Shown: positions 32,390 through 53,640, numbered from the stretch's first letter. The stretch is DNA of 64,000 nt from Prorocentrum cordatum (GCA_963575745.1 CAUYUJ010000003.1:1302001-1366000), one strand, 5' to 3'. Notes: generated by a model from the sequence alone, not told the origin. A program made the numbers and translations.

Positions 32390-32975
32390 AATCCGCCGAC
32401 CCTGTCGGCGTGTGCAAGGGGCTTGGCTGTTCGAGTCGTCGTCTCCGTTGGTCGTCGCCTCCGTCGTCCCCTTTCCCTGCAGCTTCCTTCTCAAGCTCGT
32501 GAGCGAGAGAAAAATCTAGCAGTGTCGTAATCGAGTCGAAGGGAAGCCTCTTCCCTTCGATCCCTTCCCCAGGGGGGGGGGTCCCGGGGAGGGTGGGGGG
32601 GGGGTCCCGGGGGGGGGTCCCGGGGTGGGTCCCCTCGGGCGGCCTAGAAACCTCGAAAACACTCAAAATGAGGTCCGAATGCCCAAGATGGCCCCCGAGA
32701 CGGCCCAAGAGGGCCCCGAGTCGCCGAAAGATCGGCCGAAAACGCCCACGATAGCCCCAAGACCGTCCAAGAAGCCTCCAAGACGTCCCAGGCCCCCTCC
32801 AAGAGACCCCCAGGAAGCCCCAAGAGGCCCCCACGAGGCTTCCAAGCGGCCCCTCAGAGCTTCCCAAGAGGCCCACAAACTACCCCCAAGAGGCCCCCAA
32901 GAGCGCTCGTCGTCGTCGTCGTCGTCGTCGCCATTCAGGGTCGGCGGCACCGGCCGTAAGGCCTTCGCAATAAAT
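32390..32975 (+). mobile_element. Non-autonomous Helentron/HINE(DINE)-like element
   Basis: 12-bp inverted repeats CCGCCGACCCTG (32393-32404) and CAGGGTCGGCGG (32936-32947), a 5' local hairpin cgccgac-cct-gtcggcg, and a 3' stem-loop GGCCgtaaGGCC (32952-32963) beyond the second IR. Confidence 0.6.
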
Positions 32976-45677: not shown

Positions 45678-45779
<102 letters not shown>

Positions 45780-45991
45780 AGCACAATCCAAGCACGGTGA
45801 GGGCATGTGCTGGAGGCGCAGAGATATCTCCCAAAACTGTCAACCAAGGATCCCGTGGGCGCGATGAGCCCCAAAAGCTCTTGACGAGGAACCCAACAAA
45901 GTATCACAACGCCTCCGATATACATTACTTGAAGAAGCACCAGAAGGCGCTTCAGAACAAGCCTGGCCGTTTTGCCGACCCTCCCTCAGCC

Positions 45992-46063
45992 TTTCTCTCT
46001 CTCTCTCTCTCTCTCTCTTTCTATCTCTCTGTGTTTCTCTCTCTTTCTCTCTCTTCTCCTGTC

Positions 46064-46097
<34 letters not shown>

Positions 46098-46100
46098 CCC

Positions 46101-46140
<40 letters not shown>

Positions 46141-46611
46141 ATTATCCATCGTTTCCCCTTGTCTGCCTCGCGCAAGCGCTCGATTCGTTCGAACGCGGTC
46201 GCGAACTTGCCGCTGTGAAAACCAATATATACTCATGGCGCGTGTGATTAAGAACGCTCGCACGCGCGTCAAAATACACAATGCTCACCGTGCGTAACCC
46301 CTGCCTTCCCCCAAAAACCACTGTGTTTAAACTTTTCCTTGCTCCGAACGTTCGCGGGCATGTTCGCGGTTGCTAACGCCAGCGAGGCCGACGCGGGCGA
46401 ACGCGTGAAAACATACTACGCTTGGAACAACTTTGGGGTGACGCACCGGAAATCTCAACGGTTTTGGCTGGAATCGCGGAACTAATCTCGTAACTGTTCC
46501 GCTCTTTTCTCGCCCGTTCCGTTCGCCCACCGCCGCAATAGCCAGCGCCGCTCAATTACCGCGAGGGTCGTTAACGACGCAAGGGTCGGGGGGGGGGCGA
46601 GGAGGGAGCAG

Positions 46612-46694
<83 letters not shown>

Positions 46695-46700
46695 GGGGGG

Positions 46701-46784
<84 letters not shown>

Positions 46785-46805
46785 AAAGAGAGAGGGGGGG
46801 AGAGA
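45992..46805. repeat. (CT)n tract 45992-46140 and (GA)n tract 46612-46805 (with a 37-A run) flanking a ~470-bp segment
   Basis: Directly visible. Confidence 0.9.
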
Positions 46806-47109
46806 ACTCAAGAGACACACTGCAGCATTTTCAAGCCCCTTCCGCGTAAGGGGTTGCGCCCTGTGCGTGGATGCGGAACGGCAGCAACGCTTCGTGACCT
46901 GCCCCGCGAGTCGCGGTTCCGAGCACTTGCAAAGGCGCATGCGGATCCCGAGCCTCTCTCGGACTGCGCGCCTTCCCAGGCCAGACCGACCTGATCCCAG
47001 ACCGCGCGGTAGCCTAAGATACAGAAAAACCAAGCCCGAAGGCAAACATGAGGTCGGCGCAAGCCTGCCAAGGCTCGGGCGGGCCACGGCATGCATCCGC
47101 AAGATGAAT

Positions 47110-49764
47110 TCAAAGGAAGGGTGCGAACAAGTGCTTCATATGGTCGAGGCCGTCGTCATCCTCGAGCTCAACCCCGAGCATGACAACGGCCTCCAAGCGC
47201 TGCGCCAGCAGGGCGTCTCGCTCTGCCCACGGCGGCAAACGACCAGCGCCGTAGTGGCGGTAATTAAACTGCAGGAAAGCGAGCTGGCCGAGGACGTTGA
47301 ACCAGCGCAGCGACACCGTGCGAGCGCCCCGCGGGAGCACCCCCTTGAGACACTCCCACAGGCGCTCCACGGGCACGGTGCCCGACTGAACGGGCACCCC
47401 CGCGGCCCGGATCGCCGGCGCCGCTGACTGCCAAGCCCACAGGCCCTCAACTCGCAGGGGCTTCAAGAGGCGACGGTAATGCGCCCGGACCATGGCGGTC
47501 CAGACGCCGCGAAGGCCGCGGACCCGCTCGGGCTGCTTCTTGTCGCGGATCCGCCGCCGTGCCCCGCGGCGCGGACTGGGCGCGTCGACTATTCCTCTCT
47601 CCCGCCCGAAGAGGCCCCCAATGATCTCCCGAACGCCCCACCAAGGGCTTCCCAAGAGACCCCCAGGGAATTCCAGGAGGCCCAAAAGAGGCCACCAAGA
47701 GGCTCTAAAGAGGCGCCAAAATTTGCTGCAGATGCCGTGGGCGGCGAAGAAATTGCCCCCCAAATATCTCGCAAGGGGTCAACCACGAACTCGCAGCTCA
47801 CATCCGTCAGCCCAGGCGCGGCGGCGGGCTAGGCCCAAGGCCATTGGAGCATTCCCCGACGCCAACGGGTGGAGCGGCGGCCAGGTCTGCACCACCCGGC
47901 GTTTCTACGGACCTCCGCCTTGACCTGCTTCGGGGAGGCGTGCCCGCGAAAGGCCATGGACGAATCCACTTGAACCCCAGCGCGCCGCGCGATGCGCGAC
48001 ACCACTCCCCGCGGGAGGTATGCGCCGAACTCCTTCTTCCAAAAGCAGCACTTCGACACGTTCGGCAACTGCAGGAATCGTCGAAGGTCCGCGGCTCCGT
48101 CGGCTTCAGCGCCCATGCTGGCCTGGAACGTCGCCACGGTCTTTTCGACAGCGGTTCTGAGCAACGCCACGCCCGCCTCCGACAGATCCTGCGCGCGCGA
48201 GCGCGCAGGCGCTTGCCCGGCAGGCGGGGCGCCCGGAGGCGGCGCTGACAAACGTGACAAAATGTCCTGGTGGTCGCGAATGAAATCCCGGCAGTCGTTG
48301 CACGACGGGCTCGCGCACCGCCGCAACGCAATGACCTCAGACATCTCGCGACGGGCATCGATCGGCCGCTGGTTAGCCAGGGTTTGGATCTCAGAACCGA
48401 TATGATCAAGGATCAGCCAGATCTACGATTGCATCGGACCTAGCGCAGGCCGACCAAGTAACCGCAGCCCGACCCGAACTCCCCCCTGGGCGAGCGGAGG
48501 CCGAGGCGGCGGCGTCGTGAACGGGGTCGCCAGCGATGGCTGTCAGGGGCTCACTGAAGCGATCCACTGCCTGCGAACCGTCGGCTTTCGGAGTGTCGGC
48601 AACGACGGTAGTCGTCTGTTCGGGGTACTTGCCCATGTAGAATTCGGCGAGCTTAAATCGATGCTTGCCGTAGACGCCCGTGCAGTGGCAAATGGGCGCG
48701 ATGGCGGCCAGGCCCAAGCCTGCTTGTAGGCGGTCGCGTTTGAGGCTGGATACGACGTCGTCGAGGTCGGGGAGAAGGTCGACAAGGTCCTCGGTTTTGC
48801 TCGCAATGACAGGCTTGAGGAGCGCGCCATCCACGCCAATCCAACCCAATATCACGCTGAACTCGCGCTCCTTGTTGTTGAGGACGCGGGCGGCGAGGCC
48901 CCAATTATCGCCCCCTCTGACGACGGAGCCACTGTAGACGTCGACGTGTTTTCTCATGTGCTCCACCAGGGGGGCCAGGTAGTTCTCCAACGCGTCGCAT
49001 ATGAAAGCCCTCAGCGCGCAATTGCTGGGCACTGCCGACAAGTACCAGAGCGCGCGCGACCCCATTGAAAAAGCTAGACAATGTGCGCTGCAGTCCTCTG
49101 CAATTGCTCGGCGAGAGGCCCGCCCGCAGAACGTCTCGCTGAAATTCCGGAGCAAGTGCAGCAAGAAGAAGCGCGTCGCAAAGATGAGGCCGTGCTTCTC
49201 GGTCTGCAGCACCAACACCCCAGGACAGGCTGCTCGGACATCTGCCAATGTCGCTGGAAATCCGCAGTCACGCGTGCCACGGGCATGGCGCGTCTCGCAC
49301 CTGTGCGCCCCCACTTCAAGTTGAAGCGGCAATGGGATGTCCAGGGCGAAGTGGGTCTTGGACTGGTCGGCCCGGGGGGCCGTGCAATGGCGCTCGCCCC
49401 CGGCGGCGGCCTCTGCCACGTGAGCATCTAGAGCAGCAGGACGAACAACGCAGACGTTGCGCAATCCAGGGCCCCTCTGGCGCGACTGCGCGCGGTCGCG
49501 CGCGACGCCCCGCAGCGCCGCCAGCGTGCGACTGAGTTGCGCTGGCGCCGCGTCGCGCCCAGCCTCGTCACGCAAGGGCGTGATGTGGGGGCTCGACCGC
49601 TGGCCGCCGGTGCGCGACGCTGCCTGGACATGCGCCCCGACGTCGGGAATGTCACTCTGCTTCACCGCGCAAAGATCCTCGTACTGGGCAACCCAGGTCG
49701 CGCGCAAAGGCCGCAAGGGAACGCGCTGCCGGGCTCTGCGACGCAGCCGGACGACGTCGGCCAT
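47110..49764 (-). mobile_element. Spliced DUF6729-like DDE transposase gene; predicted exons 49764-48514, 48335-47855, 47594-47110; probably inactive
   Basis: YSGSVVRGGDNW, FSVILGWIGVDGALLKPV...TE, RLQAG...PICHCTG, GDPVHD|VIALRR, SGTVPVERLW. Three ORFs join in frame across GC..AG (48513-48336) and GA..AG (47854-47595). Confidence 0.62.
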
Positions 49765-50135
49765 CGGCGCGCTGCGGCGAGAAAAAAACCCCACGATAAA
49801 CGCCGGGTCGCCGGCGATGCACCCGAACAGCCCGCCCTGAGGGGGCAGCCCATGATCGCTATCCACGAAGCGTTCTGGCTGGTGGAGCAAGCTCATGCGC
49901 ATCAAATGTCCGCCGCCGCGCCCTGCGGAATGAAGTGGGCGCGCCTTCAGTTCCCCTGGCACTGGGCCCCAGGATCATTCCTTCAGGAATCTTAGAAGGC
50001 CAACAGCCAGAAATTCAAATATCTCTGACTTTCTGGGCCTAAGACGAGGTGGCCACAAGGTGGCCCTAAAGTGGCAACGTCCAGGATGCCTCTGACCCGC
50101 CAGCCAGGCACGGTGGCGGGATATGCCGAAGGCAA

Positions 50136-51059
50136 CTAGGTAGCAGGCGCGGCAGAGCGCGGCCCGCCGCCACGCGTTGCGCTGTGTCCTGGCGCGGCCA
50201 CGCTGCGAGAGTCCTGGCCAGGAGCTCGCTGCTGCAGGGTGGCGGGCGAGTTCGCTGGCGCCACAAACTCCTCCGCGCGGAGTTTCGCTTTCCCCTTCTT
50301 GGCCGTTGCAGCCGATCGGAAGACGTCGCGCCTGACCACGCCGCGAGGCGGCCGGGCGGCGGGATCCAGCACTCGCTTCCGAACTCCGACGTCCGCCCGA
50401 ACCTTGCGAGGGAATTGGCGGGGCCACCGCGGCATGGAGGCGCGATCGTGGCTCCGGCTCTCCCGTCGGCTCTCGCTGAGAGCGATCCCTGACTGGGCCC
50501 CTGGCGGCGCAGGCACCGCAGGCGGCTGCGCGGAGCGTTCAACTGGCCCCGCCGACGCGCTGGCGCACGTCGCGCCCGCGGCGCGCCAAACATCGGGGAA
50601 TCGCCTGATCTGCGCACTATCAACTGCGGTGGACACGAGCTCCTGGACTGCCTGGTCCTTGATGTACCACTGGCTTTGGCCGCCCTTCAGACTCACGACG
50701 GGGCTGCTGAACTCGCGCGCGGCGTCGATGACGTAGCGCCAAGACCCTGCTGCAGGCATGGCCCAGTGGCGCGTCACGGAATCCAGAAGCACTTTCTTGG
50801 CCAAGTGCACCTGGCCCACAATGCACTGGCGGGGCAGCGCGCTCTCAGCTGGGGCGTCTGACCCAGTTCTGGCCAAGGCCTCTTGGCACGCGGGGCACTT
50901 TGCAATCGAATCCTTGCCGACGCGCAGACTGTGCCACCCAGGTCTCAGCCGCGCGAAAGGCCGGGTCTCCACGGGCTTGATGCCTCGCAGCATTGCTAAT
51001 GCCATCTGGGGGCCGTAAACCGCAAAGGTCCGCCATGGAAGGCGGGCGTCGGCCTCCAT
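50136..51059 (-). CDS. ASCH (PUA-like) domain protein
   Basis: PQMALAMLRGIKPVETR (GxKxxExR), LPRQCIVGQVHL, HWA...WRYVI...SPV..KGGQSQW. Domain ~50650-51050, followed by a low-complexity basic tail. Confidence 0.8.
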   Translation of the reverse strand: MEADARLPWRTFAVYGPQMALAMLRGIKPVETRPFARLRPGWHSLRVGKDSIAKCPACQEALARTGSDAPAESALPRQCIVGQVHLAKKVLLDSVTRHWAMPAAGSWRYVIDAAREFSSPVVSLKGGQSQWYIKDQAVQELVSTAVDSAQIRRFPDVWRAAGATCASASAGPVERSAQPPAVPAPPGAQSGIALSESRRESRSHDRASMPRWPRQFPRKVRADVGVRKRVLDPAARPPRGVVRRDVFRSAATAKKGKAKLRAEEFVAPANSPATLQQRAPGQDSRSVAAPGHSATRGGGPRSAAPAT

Positions 51060-51131
51060 GCCAGGCGGGACAGACGCGAGCCCCCCCCCGAGCGCCTTTC
51101 GAGCCAAAGCGCGGCGGCACGGAAGAGGGTA

Positions 51132-51685
51132 AGAAAGGCGGGATGTCAGGGCGTCAAAATGCACCATGCTTCCCCGTGCGTACCCCCCCACACCTTCTGA
51201 AAAACAATGGTTTTTTGTTCTGCGTTTTCTTCCCTGAGCGACCGCGGTTGTCTTCGCGCTTGCCGGCGCGAGCCTGAACGATCCAACTGAATGCGCGAAA
51301 ACACCTTGTGTTTAGCGCAGTTCAGGGGTGACGCACGGGATTTCCCTTGGCGTTTTGGCTTAATCTTGGTGCTTGCCATGGAAGTACGAGCCAAGACATG
51401 GGCAGACGATTGGTCTGGATGCCCTCTGCTTCAAATGCAGACGCAGCCGCTGTCATCGCGACCGACTGCACGTTGGGTCAGAAAGGCGGGATGGCAGGGC
51501 GACAAAATGCACTATGCTCCCCCGCGCGTAACCACCATGCCTTCTGAAAAGCATGTTTTTTACGTTTCCTTCCCTGAGCGACCGCAGTTGTCTTCGCGCT
51601 TGCCAGCGCAGGCCTGAACGGTTCAACTGAATGCGTGACAACACCACGCGTTTAGCGCAGTTCAGGGGTGACGCACGGGATTCCC
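51132..51685. repeat. Two ~210-bp direct repeats (51132-51345, 51480-51685), with a diverged third copy at 46266-46453
   Basis: Shared gcg(t/a)caaaat(g/a)cac.atgct..ccg.gcgta...ggggtgacgcac.gga. Confidence 0.88.
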
Positions 51686-51840
51686 CAACGCGGCGACGAA
51701 CGATTTGCCAGCCTCACGAGGCCAAACGCAAACACGATAAAATCAGACACTGCCGTAGCCCTAGCACTGGTAGTCGTAGCGTTTTATATATATATATACA
51801 TACATATATATATATACATATGAATAAAATATGAATAAAC

Positions 51841-51994
51841 TAGTTGTAGATGTAACAGTAGCAGAAGCAGTAGTAGTAGTAGTACAACTACTACTACTAC
51901 TACTAGTAGGCACTAGCAGTAGGTATTAGTAGTAGGTACGACTGGTAGTAGGTACTAGTAGTAGGAACTAGTAGTAGTAGTAGCTATAGTAGTT

Positions 51995-52025
<31 letters not shown>

Positions 52026-52530
52026 AAGTAGTAGTAGTAGTAGTAGTAGCACTAGTACTAGTACTAGTAGCCGGTACTAGTAGTAAGTACGAGTAGTAGG
52101 CACTAGTAGTAGGCACTAGTGGTGAGTACTAGTAGTAGGCACTAGTAGTAGGCGCTAGTAGAAGGTACCAGTCGTAAGTACTAGTAGTAGGCACTAGTGG
52201 AAGGTACCAGTCGTAGGTACTAGTAGTAGGCACTTGTAGTAGATACGATTAGTAGGTACTGGTAGCAGGTACTGGTGGTAGGTACTAGTGGTAGGTACTA
52301 GTAGTAGGTACTAGTAGTAGGTACTACTAGTAATAGGTACTAGTGGTAGGTACTAGTAGTAGGTACTACTAGTAGTAAGTACTACTAGAGGTCGGCACTA
52401 GTAGTAGGTACTCGTAGTAGGTGTTAGTAGTAGGCACTAGTAGTAGGTACTAGCAGTAGGCACTAGTAGTAGGTACTAGTAGTAGGTACTACTAATAGTT
52501 GGTCCTAGTAGTAGGCGCTAGTAGTAAGAG
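51841..52530. repeat. (TAG)n / (GTACTAGTAGTAG)n satellite
   Basis: Directly visible. Confidence 0.96.
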
Positions 52531-52639
52531 TAATCGTAGACCCCCAAATGAATGTGAGTAGCCCTGCAGAAACCGTTGGTTTTTGACGCACCGCCCCAAA
52601 AAACCTAACAACAACAAAAAGCAACACCAGGCAACAGAG

Positions 52640-53640
52640 TGTTCATTGCTTGCCTCCAGCGCCCTGGCAGCGCGCGAGAAAGCACGAGAGCGCAATCGCG
52701 AGTCCAGCATCTTGCCCAGCATGCGCAACTGGCCCTCGCCGTCGGCCTCCTTGCCCAAGCGCACGCCCAAACGCTTCGCCTCTGCTGTGAAAAGATGGCG
52801 TTGGTACCGCGGGTACGCCTGCACCACTACCACTGCGCACTGTTTAGACGCGCGCTGAAAAGCAACGACATCCAAGCCGCGACCCTCCGCCATGTCACCG
52901 CCCGACTCCTCGCGATACGTCGTCTGGGCGCGCCCGACCCCGTCGTCGCAGTTGAACCGCAACCGCGCCAACCACACAGCAAGCAGCTGCACCCCCAAGC
53001 GCGCGCCAATGAACTCACTGAACACATGCATGTCAGTGTTGTTCATCGGATAGTTACATTCCCCCCGCGCGTGGTCTGACCACTGCGGGCCCTGCCAGAA
53101 AACAAAGAAAAGCAACCCAAATCTCAGGACACGGAACTGGAAGACAACACTGTGTTTCATGCCGCCGCCACTCTGAGCGCAAAGGGCACACTCGGCACGG
53201 AAATCCAGCTAAACACCGCGCCCAAAACAACTGAACCCTTTTTTTCCGTTTCGCCACGTCCTGGAGTAACTGCAACACGGCCGGGTCCACGCACACCTGC
53301 TCAAAGAAGGCCTCGGCGGCGGCTGCCCCGTGAATTTTCTCCACCGTGCTGACCGCTGCGGCGTTGGCATAAGCGGCCAGCTCCGAGACGCGCTCGCGGA
53401 TGTTCATCGGCCCTCTGCGAAGTCCGTCAAGCCTGTGTCCTGCACGCGGCGCCGCTGAAAAAAAGAAGAAGCTGTAGCAAAAAATGAGGTGGAACAAAGC
53501 AGGGGGGTGAAAAAAACAAACCTGGGCATGCTCTGTGACATTTTCACTCCGTCCTGGAAGCTCATGCCCTCCATGAGCGCGACAGCATGGATTCCCATCG
53601 GCGTCCACGCAACGTGTTTGGTGTTTACTGTCTGGGCCAT
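52640..53640 (-). pseudogene. Spliced gene of unknown function, partly degenerate
   Basis: Phase-0 GT-AG intron 53236-53092 joins ...LQDVAKRKKR to GPQWSDHARGECNYP... A further T-rich GT..AG intron at ~53521-53440 does not restore the frame cleanly. Confidence 0.5.

What the first reader, a model, noticed from the sequence alone, without database searches (positions are those of the whole stretch)
46266..51685. ASCH-domain gene coupled to a DUF6729-like transposase inside a direct-repeat-bounded cassette
Seen: an intact ASCH signature ORF (GIKPVETR) lies ~370 bp upstream of, and on the same strand as, a DDE-like transposase. Related ~200-bp repeats in the same orientation lie on both sides (46266, 51132, 51480). 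Known: ASCH is a PUA-like nucleic-acid-binding fold, with members acting on RNA or modified bases, and dinoflagellate DNA is rich in 5-hydroxymethyluracil. Inference: a DNA transposon carrying an ASCH accessory gene, possibly a reader of modified bases or an RNA-level regulator. I do not know of a described eukaryotic element with this pairing.
Basis: partly seen in the sequence, partly recalled or inferred. Interest (0 to 1): 0.8.

Follow-up and report, generated by a model that had tools for sequence, protein, structure and literature searches.

The report
ASCH-domain transposase fossil in a dinoflagellate
This stretch of the dinoflagellate Prorocentrum cordatum holds a decayed copy of a multi-copy, transposase-like gene whose protein begins with an ASCH nucleic-acid-binding domain, a pairing I did not find described.

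Summary
The sequence features are real. On the minus strand an ASCH-type ORF (GIKPVETR) lies upstream of a transposase-like ORF, and three same-orientation ~200-bp repeats flank them.

ASCH is not a separate accessory gene. In 10 of 83 diverged relatives, and in paralogue P0003, the ASCH domain, a conserved basic linker and the transposase-like body form one protein.

The 372-bp "gap" in the window is that linker. It is broken by a 2-nt frameshift and a 232-nt insertion of the introner or MITE type.

The window copy is decayed. It has two or three such insertions, and three conserved residues are lost: both candidate catalytic Asp and one Cys of a CxxC motif.

The transposase identity is probable, not proven. 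Supporting it are a conserved D..D..DxxH..E pattern, many dispersed and decayed copies, and language-model similarity to DUF6729 and Mutator clusters. Against it, no HMM hit was found and the core did not fold confidently.

The 200-bp repeats are not shown to be element ends. A paralogue also keeps the gene upstream of them.

Verdict: a new variant of a known kind, of moderate interest.

The parts
51475..51690 (+). 200-bp repeat, copy 3 (distal upstream copy of the near-tandem pair)
   Evidence: 84.5% identical to copy 2 over 220 nt.
51127..51350 (+). 200-bp repeat, copy 2. It ends 68 bp upstream of the ASCH ATG and holds a 15-nt internal inverted repeat (51173-51187 / 51325-51339).
50550..51059 (-). 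ASCH domain coding region (ATG at 51059; GIKPVETR at 50961-50984). Intact, TRIP4/EOLA1-type, with the GKER motif.
50141..50549 (-). Basic linker shared with the whole family (FPRKVRAD 50391-50414, ANSPA, QRVAAGRALPRLL 50141-50179). It is broken by a 2-nt frameshift near 50186 relative to paralogues P0002 and P0003.
49909..50140 (-). 232-nt insertion between '..PRLL' and 'HLMRM..'. It is introner/MITE-like (element A). Its ends share an inverted motif with element B, and GT (50136) .. AG (49931) would splice in frame.
   Evidence: A sharp depth spike at 50088-50139 in run X1. Introner elements in P. cordatum are described in PMC10666404 (passages).
48502..49908 (-). Transposase-like body, first part. 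It holds the CxxC site (window RCETRH, 49282-49302), the D1 motif (window GGD in place of GDG, 48904-48936), the D2 motif (window TG in place of TD, 48658-48687) and GDPVHD (48514-48531).
48336..48501 (-). 166-nt segment that breaks the frame. Gene model P0001 removes it as an intron. It is absent from distant relatives, which read HD straight into VIA..
   Evidence: One X1 contig skips 62 nt here.
47913..48335 (-). Transposase-like body, middle part (the predicted alpha-helical insertion region).
47550..47827 (-). Introner/MITE-like insertion B inside the coding sequence. Its short terminal inverted repeat is CCCGCCGCCGCGCC .. GGCACGGCGGCGG.
   Evidence: An X1 contig joins 47547 to 47851, skipping 303 nt, and depth spikes at 47502-47687. 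The continuous L001 ORF leaves only 17 aa for this interval.
47110..47544 (-). Transposase-like C-terminal part with the candidate catalytic Glu (VPVERLW, 47356-47376) and the stop codon at 47110-47112.
46266..46470 (+). 200-bp repeat, copy 1. This weak copy lies about 640 bp downstream of the stop, between (CT)n and (GA)n/poly-A tracts.

Best explanation
The locus is one decayed copy of a dispersed, multi-copy dinoflagellate gene family. The family encodes a protein of roughly 1000 aa with these parts, in order:
- an N-terminal TRIP4/EOLA1-type ASCH domain with the GxKxxExR motif intact;
- a basic, NLS-like linker ending in R[VI]AAGRTL..L..LM;
- a CxxC-containing region;
- a probable RNase-H-like cut-and-paste transposase core, with conserved GDG (D1), about 86 aa, TD (D2), about 51 aa, G[DE]PxH[DE], about 225 aa, P-x-E-R-[FLW]-W (E).

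In intact relatives I infer that the ASCH domain serves as the nucleic-acid-binding or targeting module of the transposase, in the place where other superfamilies use BED, THAP or WRKY domains.

The window copy is very likely inactive:
- a 2-nt frameshift separates ASCH from the rest;
- two introner/MITE-like elements and a 166-nt segment interrupt the frame;
- both candidate catalytic Asp and one Cys of the CxxC are replaced.

The ~200-bp repeats are flank or promoter-region repeats, possibly small foldback elements, and not demonstrated termini.

Shown: the ASCH fold, the fusion architecture, the multi-copy and decayed state, and the insertions. Inferred: the catalytic fold, mobility, and what ASCH binds.
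For: ASCH fold:
- A phmmer search found 84 relatives at E<=1e-3.
- G, K, E and R of the motif are nearly invariant in 50 aligned sequences.
- The five best PDB hits of the profile are all TRIP4/ASC-1 (E 0.015-0.28).
- The model has pLDDT 86.8.
- The Foldseek top 8 are all TRIP4 ASCH (E 7e-8 to 8.5e-7).

Fusion:
- P0003, a P. cordatum paralogue, starts MESDARLPW..GIKPVETR and runs into the transposase.
- 10 of 83 ASCH-search representatives carry the linker or transposase after ASCH, always in the same order.
- The window's own ASCH ORF runs on into the family linker.

Transposase-like core:
- D1 is present in 11 of 14 sequences that cover it, and D2 in 11 of 12. E is present in all 9 sequences that the motif scan matched there. 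The L001 ORF reads AGTIPVERLW, which the scan pattern did not match.
- This layout matches the D-D-[C/D]xxH-insertion-E signature described for the P superfamily (PMC8230255, passages).
- ESM look-alikes of intact paralogue P0091 are DUF6729 clusters at 0.94/0.93/0.92 (18 of 30 hits, 183 shared features). A Mutator cluster scores 0.82.

Multi-copy and decay:
- Five P. cordatum gene models lie on five contigs.
- 330 contigs of run X1 lay on the locus: 10 at >=99%, 43 at 95-99%, 103 at 90-95% and 174 below 90% likeness.
- P0002 and P0005 also lack D1.
- The window-specific defects are documented.
Against: No profile library recognises the protein as a transposase:
- Pfam: 0 hits for the window ORFs even at E<=10, and none for P0089-P0094 or the L001 ORF.
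- NCBIfam: 0 of 5 proteins.
- PHROGs: nothing relevant.
- PDB sequence profiles: none.

The AlphaFold model of P0091 is poor (pLDDT 56.7). The putative core came out as low-confidence helices, so an RNase-H fold is not shown. Foldseek and VIA-align gave nothing above chance.

No terminal inverted repeats or target-site duplications were found around the window copy or at the ends of the block shared by L002 and L004.

ASCH is not universal in the family. The continuous 994-aa L001 ORF has none. L002 and L004 carry another N-terminal domain with no detectable profile match (hhalign probability 0.3%).

The Pfam ASCH model itself does not score in any of 86 proteins.

The fusions are gene models whose DNA I did not see, and P0005 shows that such models can be chimeric.

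The frameshift could be an assembly error, and the insertions could be spliced introns, so the window gene might still be expressed.
Confidence: 0.65

Rival explanations
1. A DNA transposon carries ASCH as a separate accessory gene upstream of its transposase, and the ~200-bp direct repeats mark the ends of the cassette.
For: In the window the two ORFs are in different frames and are separated by a stop. The annotators' model P0001 starts after the ASCH ORF. The repeats occur only around this gene in the 64 kb.
Against: Relatives align through the gap, and in 10 of 83 representatives plus P0003 the two parts form one protein joined by a conserved linker. The separation in the window comes down to a 2-nt frameshift plus a 232-nt insertion. 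The repeats are direct. Two of them form a near-tandem pair 68 bp from the ATG. Paralogue model P0005 keeps the upstream neighbour gene (53407-52831) beyond the repeats. One X1 contig joins 48142 to 51684, at the outer edge of copy 3. The repeats are absent from related loci L001-L007.
Confidence: 0.08
2. The family is not a transposase. It is a lineage-specific, expanded dinoflagellate host gene family, for example a nuclease or a chromatin or nucleic-acid-modification factor. It has an ASCH module, or it is an anciently domesticated transposase that no longer moves.
For: There is no HMM or fold evidence for a transposase, and no TIRs or TSDs were found. P. cordatum genes are massively duplicated: 64.8% are dispersed duplicates (PMC10666404, passages). 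The same ASCH-like domain is also fused to an AlkB-like 2OG dioxygenase (P0060, E 8.5e-11) and to a GNAT domain (P0086). L002 and L004 share a conserved three-gene block.
Against: The invariant D..D..DxxH..E pattern with transposase-like spacing. ESM look-alikes of DUF6729 and Mutator type. Many decayed copies with lost key residues and insertions, which is typical of mobile-element fossils.
Confidence: 0.2
3. The window copy is a live, intron-containing gene. The three interrupting segments are spliced introns (introner elements), and the 2-nt frameshift is an assembly error or is bypassed, so a full ASCH-transposase protein is made here.
For: Segment A has GT..AG ends that would splice in frame. 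P. cordatum introns are often introner elements with inverted repeats, and donors are GC 51.4%, GT 24.7% and GA 23.8% (PMC10666404, passages). P0001 is an annotated model that removes two of the segments. The spliced product aligns with continuous relatives.
Against: D1 (GGD for GDG), D2 (TG for TD) and the CxxC (RCETRH) are altered in this copy only, or together with other decayed paralogues. The ASCH part is out of frame by 2 nt.
Confidence: 0.12

Closest known systems
TRIP4/ASC-1 and EOLA1 ASCH domains (PUA-like superfamily; GKER octapeptide subgroup)
   Different: Only 14-18% identity. The Pfam ASCH model does not score (0 of 86 proteins). Here the domain sits at the N-terminus of a transposase-like protein, not in a transcription or ribosome-quality-control cofactor. 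Neither binding nor catalysis was tested.
Eukaryotic cut-and-paste DDE transposases with a [C/D]xxH motif and an insertion domain (P element/THAP9, hAT, Mutator-like)
   Same: The order and approximate spacing match: D, D, DxxH, a long insertion, then E. Compare P0090 (D90, D176, D227, E453) with the P element (D230, D303, D339, E531; PMC8230255, passages). The protein also has an N-terminal nucleic-acid-binding module ahead of the core and occurs as multi-copy decayed paralogues. Non-TIR MULEs, and a MULE clade with a RING ORF beside the transposase, are described (PMC6446971, passages). L001 has a weak RING ORF upstream.
   Different: There is no sequence-profile or structural match to any of these families. 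No TIRs or TSDs were found. The N-terminal module is ASCH rather than THAP, BED or WRKY (that list is from my own recall).
Pfam DUF6729 (PF20499) proteins of animals
   Same: They are the nearest protein-language-model clusters for P0091 (0.94, 0.93, 0.92; 18 of 30 hits) and for P0001 (0.85).
   Different: The Pfam scans, at cut-offs from 0.01 to 10, listed no DUF6729 match for any family protein. No paper mentions DUF6729 or PF20499 in the searched library, so its function is itself unknown.
Introner elements / MITE-derived introns of P. cordatum
   Same: The two inserted segments A and B share short inverted termini and lie inside coding sequence. One has GT..AG ends, and parts of both are highly repeated in run X1. 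Such elements are reported for this genome (PMC10666404, passages).
   Different: Splicing was not shown here. I did not compare the segments with the paper's own element set, because I did not open its supplements.

Membership tests
ASCH superfamily (TRIP4/EOLA1 type) | PUA-like beta-barrel fold superposable on solved ASCH domains | tested here: met
ASCH superfamily (TRIP4/EOLA1 type) | GxKxxExR octapeptide motif | tested here: met
   GIKPVETR at 50961-50984. G31, K33, E36 and R38 are nearly invariant in 50 sequences. The motif definition and the GKER subgroup come from bioRxiv 10.64898/2026.02.27.708502 (passages).
ASCH superfamily (TRIP4/EOLA1 type) | Match to the Pfam ASCH profile at its gathering score | tested here: not met
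   No Pfam family for the window ORF at E<=10. 0 of 86 family proteins hit ASCH at E<=0.01. A profile of the family does find TRIP4 ASCH chains in the PDB, but only at E 0.015.
ASCH superfamily (TRIP4/EOLA1 type) | Nucleic-acid binding or N4-acylcytidine amidohydrolase activity | not testable with these tools
   This needs biochemistry.
DDE/RNase-H-like cut-and-paste transposase | Conserved acidic triad in the order D, D, E, with a [C/D]xxH motif after the second D | tested here: met
   Met at family level. D1 is present in 11 of 14 sequences and D2 in 11 of 12. G[DE]PxH[DE] is present in 9 sequences. E is present in all 9 sequences the scan matched, and L001 has it too by eye. The window copy itself has GGD and TG at D1 and D2.
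DDE/RNase-H-like cut-and-paste transposase | RNase-H-like fold of the catalytic core | tested here: inconclusive
DDE/RNase-H-like cut-and-paste transposase | Terminal inverted repeats and target-site duplication | tested here: inconclusive
   No non-low-complexity inverted repeat flanks the window copy. None was found at the ends of the 8.7-kb block shared by L002 and L004. True ends are unknown because no set of genomic copies could be aligned, as no genome is held.
DDE/RNase-H-like cut-and-paste transposase | Dispersed multi-copy family with decayed members | tested here: met
   Five P. cordatum models on five contigs. 330 X1 contigs at graded likeness. Loss of D1 in P0001, P0002 and P0005.
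Pfam DUF6729 (PF20499) | Match to the Pfam profile | tested here: not met
   No DUF6729 match was listed for any family protein in the Pfam scans. Cut-offs were E<=10 for the window ORFs and P0089-P0094, <=1 for the locus ORFs and <=0.01 for the 86 proteins. Only language-model look-alikes point there.
Introner elements / MITEs (for segments A and B) | Short inverted repeats at both ends, location as an intron in a gene, and many copies | tested here: inconclusive
   Shared inverted termini of 9-13 nt. GT..AG ends for A. Depth spikes of 181 to 1044 in X1, and a contig lacking B. Splicing and true copy number were not shown.

The most novel reading that the evidence does not exclude
Dinoflagellates harbour an undescribed superfamily of large DNA transposons with a DUF6729/Mutator-like DD(DxxH)E transposase and a companion ORF-A. 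Both proteins have repeatedly recruited TRIP4-type ASCH domains with an intact K/E catalytic motif. The ASCH module would read, or even hydrolytically edit, a base modification of the heavily modified dinoflagellate DNA (5hmU-marked repeats or an N4-acyl cytosine). That would target or license transposition, coupling mobility to the host's epigenetic silencing marks.
Probability: 0.15. Interest if true: 0.85.

Novelty: new variant of a known kind. Interest (0 to 1): 0.55.

Why it matters
Cut-and-paste transposases are known with zinc-finger or helix-turn-helix DNA-binding heads. I found no described case with a PUA-like ASCH head. The searches were 'ASCH domain' + transposase (11 papers, none a eukaryotic fusion) and ASCH + dinoflagellate (21 papers, none of the 10 listed relevant by title).

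ASCH domains bind nucleic acids, and some remove N4-acetyl groups from cytidine. Dinoflagellate DNA is rich in 5hmU, which marks repeats and silences transposable elements in Amphidinium (abstract of bioRxiv 10.1101/2023.11.30.569493). An ASCH-headed transposase family therefore gives a concrete, testable link between base modification and transposon biology in these genomes.

Practically, it shows that several 'unnamed protein product' gene models of P. cordatum (P0001, P0002, P0003, P0005, P0091) are transposon-derived. Some of them are chimeric or decayed.

Tried and rejected
- Whole-genome survey: no genome is held for this window.
The taxa of most ASCH relatives are therefore unknown.
- The genome search with PF20499 on L001, L002 and L004 could not run because the records are not held.
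- Pfam, NCBIfam, PHROGs and PDB sequence searches of the transposase-like proteins gave nothing usable.
- The structure of P0091 from a 16-sequence alignment was too poor in the core. Foldseek and VIA-align on it gave only chance-level rows.
- RNA evidence: no RNA holder was listed for the locus. The three runs laid were contigs of uncertain kind ('DNA?'). X2 laid nothing and X3 only 3 short pieces.
- Rfam and tRNA scans of 45.5-52.5 kb gave no credible match for the repeats.
- The 200-bp repeats and segments A and B have no counterpart in loci L001-L007.
- Neither the ASCH HMM nor hhalign finds the window-type ASCH in L001-L007.
- Earlier findings of this scan held nothing on this genome or family.
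- The first search for related loci attempt failed because the alignment was too diverse. A narrower alignment worked.
- Other long ORFs of the window gave no informative Pfam hit: 12 of the 25 ORFs of at least 300 aa were scanned.

Full report
**Origin and anatomy**

The 518-aa minus-strand ORF at 48406-49962 is 100% identical, over 82% of its length, to a gene model named 'unnamed protein product, partial [Prorocentrum cordatum]' (P0001, 694 aa). Four further relatives were found, three of them P. cordatum models on other contigs. No whole genome is held for the window.

P0001 joins three minus-strand ORFs: 48406-49962, 47829-48344 and 47110-47763. Upstream on the same strand lies the 351-aa ORF at 50136-51191. 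It carries GIKPVETR at 50961-50984, and its likely start is the ATG at 51059, which corresponds to residue 1 of paralogue P0003.

**The repeats**

Two diagnostic patterns each hit exactly three sites in the 64 kb: 46266/46435, 51151/51325 and 51499/51665. All are on the + strand. Chance expectation is 0.17 and 0.00 matches, and 0 of 100 shuffles reached 3.

- Copies 2 and 3 are 84.5% identical over 220 nt, with a period of about 348 nt.
- Copy 1 shares only a 37-nt block at 86% and a short exact block. The three-way alignment has 76% mean column identity.
- In copy 2 the best-conserved blocks form a 15-nt inverted repeat, CCCGTGCGTACCCCC / GGGGTGACGCACGGG, 137 nt apart. By eye, similar blocks stand in the other two copies.
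- Rfam and tRNA scans gave nothing for the repeats.

**ASCH**

Pfam gives no hit for the ORF even at E<=10. None of 86 family proteins hits the Pfam ASCH model at E<=0.01. Other evidence nonetheless supports the fold:

- An exhaustive phmmer search found 84 cluster representatives at E<=1e-3, 30 of them at E<=1e-10, matching residues of about 50-205.
- In a 50-sequence alignment, G, K, E and R of the GxKxxExR motif are nearly invariant.
- The five best PDB hits of the profile are all TRIP4/ASC-1 ASCH chains, aligned over nearly the full domain, at E 0.015-0.28.
- The AlphaFold model has pLDDT 86.8 and pTM 0.84.
- The Foldseek top 8 are all TRIP4 ASCH (E 7e-8 to 8.5e-7), followed by ZmASCH, EOLA1 and CXorf40A.

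The domain is therefore a TRIP4/EOLA1-type ASCH of the 'GKER' subgroup. In that subgroup K and E are needed for ac4C removal, and several members bind DNA (bioRxiv 10.64898/2026.02.27.708502, passages). Solved TRIP4 ASCH entries include dsDNA complexes (entry titles).

**One protein, not two genes**

- P0003 (640 aa) begins MESDARLPW..GIKPVETR and continues through a linker into the transposase-like body.
- Among the 83 representatives found with the ASCH query, 10 also carry the linker or transposase part: P0006, P0010, P0017, P0020, P0032, P0034, P0047, P0048, P0080 and P0081. The order is always ASCH, then a basic stretch, then R[VI]AAGRTL..L..LM, then the body. These 10 are 28-40% identical to the window domain.
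- The other 73 are mostly short, or have other architectures.
- The window's own ASCH ORF runs on into the first half of that linker (FPRKVRAD, ANSPA) up to about 50187.
- tblastn of P0002 and P0003 covers the 'gap' except for 49909-50104.

Relative to P0002 and P0003, the window has a 2-nt deletion near 50186. It also has 232 extra nucleotides (49909-50140) between '..PRLL' and 'HLMRM..'.

One caveat applies. The fused proteins are gene models whose DNA I did not see, and P0005 shows that such models can be chimeric.

**The interrupting segments**

Segment A (49909-50140) and segment B (47550-47827) share short inverted termini: CCCGCC[A/G]CCG[T/C]GCC .. GGC[A/G]CGGCGGCGG.

- A has a GT at 50136 and an AG at 49931, which would splice in frame.
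- In run X1 a contig joins 47547 to 47851, so it lacks B. Other contigs join about 47693 to 50088. Depth spikes at 47502-47687 (181) and 50106-50291 (1044).
- The continuous 994-aa ORF of metagenome locus L001 leaves only 17 aa for the interval that holds B.
- The P. cordatum genome paper reports introns enriched in introner elements with inverted repeats at both ends, and mostly GC donors (PMC10666404, passages).

I read A and B as such elements.

A third segment (48336-48501, 166 nt) also breaks the frame and is removed as an intron in P0001. Distant relatives read HD straight into VIA...

**Is it a transposase?**

Evidence for:

- Conserved motifs are YSGSxIRGDG (D1), H[AS]TDSYGKHR (D2), G[DE]PxH[DE] and TGT[VI]PxER[FLW]W (E). 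D1 is present in 11 of 14 sequences covering it. D2 is present in 11 of 12. E is present in all 9 sequences that the scan matched, and L001 has AGTIPVERLW by eye.
- Spacing in P0090 is D90, D176, D227 and E453. This resembles the P-element signature D230, D303, D339(xxH), E531 with an insertion domain (PMC8230255, passages).
- The family is multi-copy and dispersed. Five P. cordatum models lie on five contigs. 330 X1 contigs lay on the locus, of which 10 are at >=99%, 43 at 95-99%, 103 at 90-95% and 174 below 90% likeness.
- Protein-language-model neighbours of the intact paralogue P0091 are DUF6729 clusters at 0.94, 0.93 and 0.92 (18 of 30 hits, 183 shared features). A Mutator cluster scores 0.82. 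For P0001 the top score is 0.85, which is a lead only.

Evidence against:

- No Pfam, NCBIfam, PHROGs or PDB-sequence hit was found.
- The P0091 model is poor (pLDDT 56.7, core unresolved), and the fold searches stayed at chance level.
- No TIRs or TSDs were found.

I rate 'cut-and-paste transposase of the D-D-[C/D]xxH-E group' at about 0.7.

**State of the window copy**

- D1 reads GGD instead of GDG (48904-48936).
- D2 reads TG instead of TD (48658-48687). This is the only sequence of 12 that lacks the Asp.
- The CxxC reads RCETRH (49282-49302), against RCxTC in relatives.

Together with the frameshift and the insertions, this marks a fossil. Paralogues P0002 and P0005 have also lost D1.

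**Are the repeats the ends?**

This is not shown, and several results argue against it.

- The repeats are direct, not inverted.
- Copy 2 ends 68 bp from the ATG.
- The N-terminus of P0005 maps to 53407-52831 at 89-90% identity. This is the gene upstream of the repeats, so at another locus that neighbour also accompanies a transposase copy.
- One X1 contig joins 48142 to 51684, the outer edge of copy 3.
- Related loci L001-L007 lack the repeat.

The decisive copy-by-copy alignment could not be done.

**Wider family**

- L001 carries a continuous 994-aa transposase-like ORF without ASCH. An 824-aa ORF-A lies upstream, with a weak RING match below the Pfam cut-off.
- L002 and L004 share an 8.7-kb block at 78-81% identity. 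It holds ORF-A, ORF-B and a transposase with a different ~110-aa N-terminal domain joined by the same linker.
- That different domain has only two PDB sequence hits, 2dp9 (TthASCH) and 1wk2, both at E of about 1. This is a hint only. hhalign to the window-type ASCH gives 0.3% probability.
- ORF-A of L001 and L002 are homologous (E 1e-37). Two ASCH-search proteins, P0074 and P0012, combine the ASCH-like domain with ORF-A sequence.
- The ASCH-like domain is also fused to an AlkB-like 2OG dioxygenase (P0060) and to a GNAT domain (P0086).

ASCH is thus a mobile module within this system and in nucleic-acid-modification contexts.

**Literature**

- DUF6729 and PF20499: 0 papers.
- 'ASCH domain' + transposase: 11 papers. 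In the two I read in passages, the nearest case is a bacterial EVE-transposase fusion.
- ASCH + dinoflagellate: 21 papers. None of the 10 listed is relevant by title.
- Supplements of the P. cordatum paper, which may list repeat families, were not opened.

**Verdict**

The interpretation needs revision. This is an ASCH-headed, transposase-like gene family, not a transposase with an accessory gene, and the window holds a decayed copy. The repeat 'boundaries' are unproven. It is a new variant of a known kind, of moderate interest.

Noticed in passing
window 49909-50140 and 47550-47827: Two introner/MITE-like insertions with shared short inverted termini lie inside the coding sequence. Parts of them (50088-50139 and 47502-47687) are highly repeated in run X1, and X1 contigs join the two parts directly.
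   Followed up: partly
window 52831-53407 (minus strand): The gene just upstream of the repeats is 89-90% identical to the N-terminus of paralogue model P0005. At another locus it therefore also sits next to a transposase copy. This points to a duplicated unit larger than the proposed cassette, or to a chimeric gene model.
   Followed up: partly
L002 3172-11852 and L004 3071-11797: An 8.7-kb block, 78-81% identical between two metagenome contigs, holds three same-strand genes: ORF-A (about 690 aa), ORF-B (about 430 aa) and the transposase-like gene. Homology stops right after the transposase stop codon, and no TIRs were found.
   Followed up: partly
L001 2626-5100; L002 3432-5492; proteins P0074, P0012: ORF-A, the companion gene upstream of the transposase, is conserved between L001 and L002 (E 1e-37). 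It also occurs fused to the ASCH-like domain in P0074 and P0012. It has no Pfam family except a weak RING match in L001.
   Followed up: partly
proteins P0060, P0064, P0086: The same ASCH-like domain is fused to an AlkB-like 2OG-Fe(II) oxygenase (P0060, Pfam E 8.5e-11) and to a GNAT acetyltransferase (P0086). By eye, P0064 looks like a longer dioxygenase fusion.
   Followed up: no
L002 8514-8900: The alternative N-terminal domain of the L002/L004 transposases has only two PDB sequence hits, both weak (E about 1). They are 2dp9 (TthASCH, an ASCH protein) and 1wk2, a Thermus protein that also appears among the fold matches of the window's ASCH model. The domain may be a second, divergent PUA-like head.
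   Followed up: partly
window 45979-46143 / 46616-46780, 45680-45780, 46700-46740: Long (CT)n and (GA)n tracts form a 165-nt, 79% complementary inverted pair around repeat copy 1. Poly-A runs of about 100 and about 37 nt lie beside them.
   Followed up: no
window 51840-52552: A (TAG)n-like array and a 13-nt-period tandem array (28 overlapping copies reported) lie between the repeats and the upstream gene.
   Followed up: no
window 47604-47712 and 32799-32903: Part of insertion B resembles a short stretch 15 kb away (73-79% identity over 52-78 nt). This is consistent with a dispersed small repeat.
   Followed up: no
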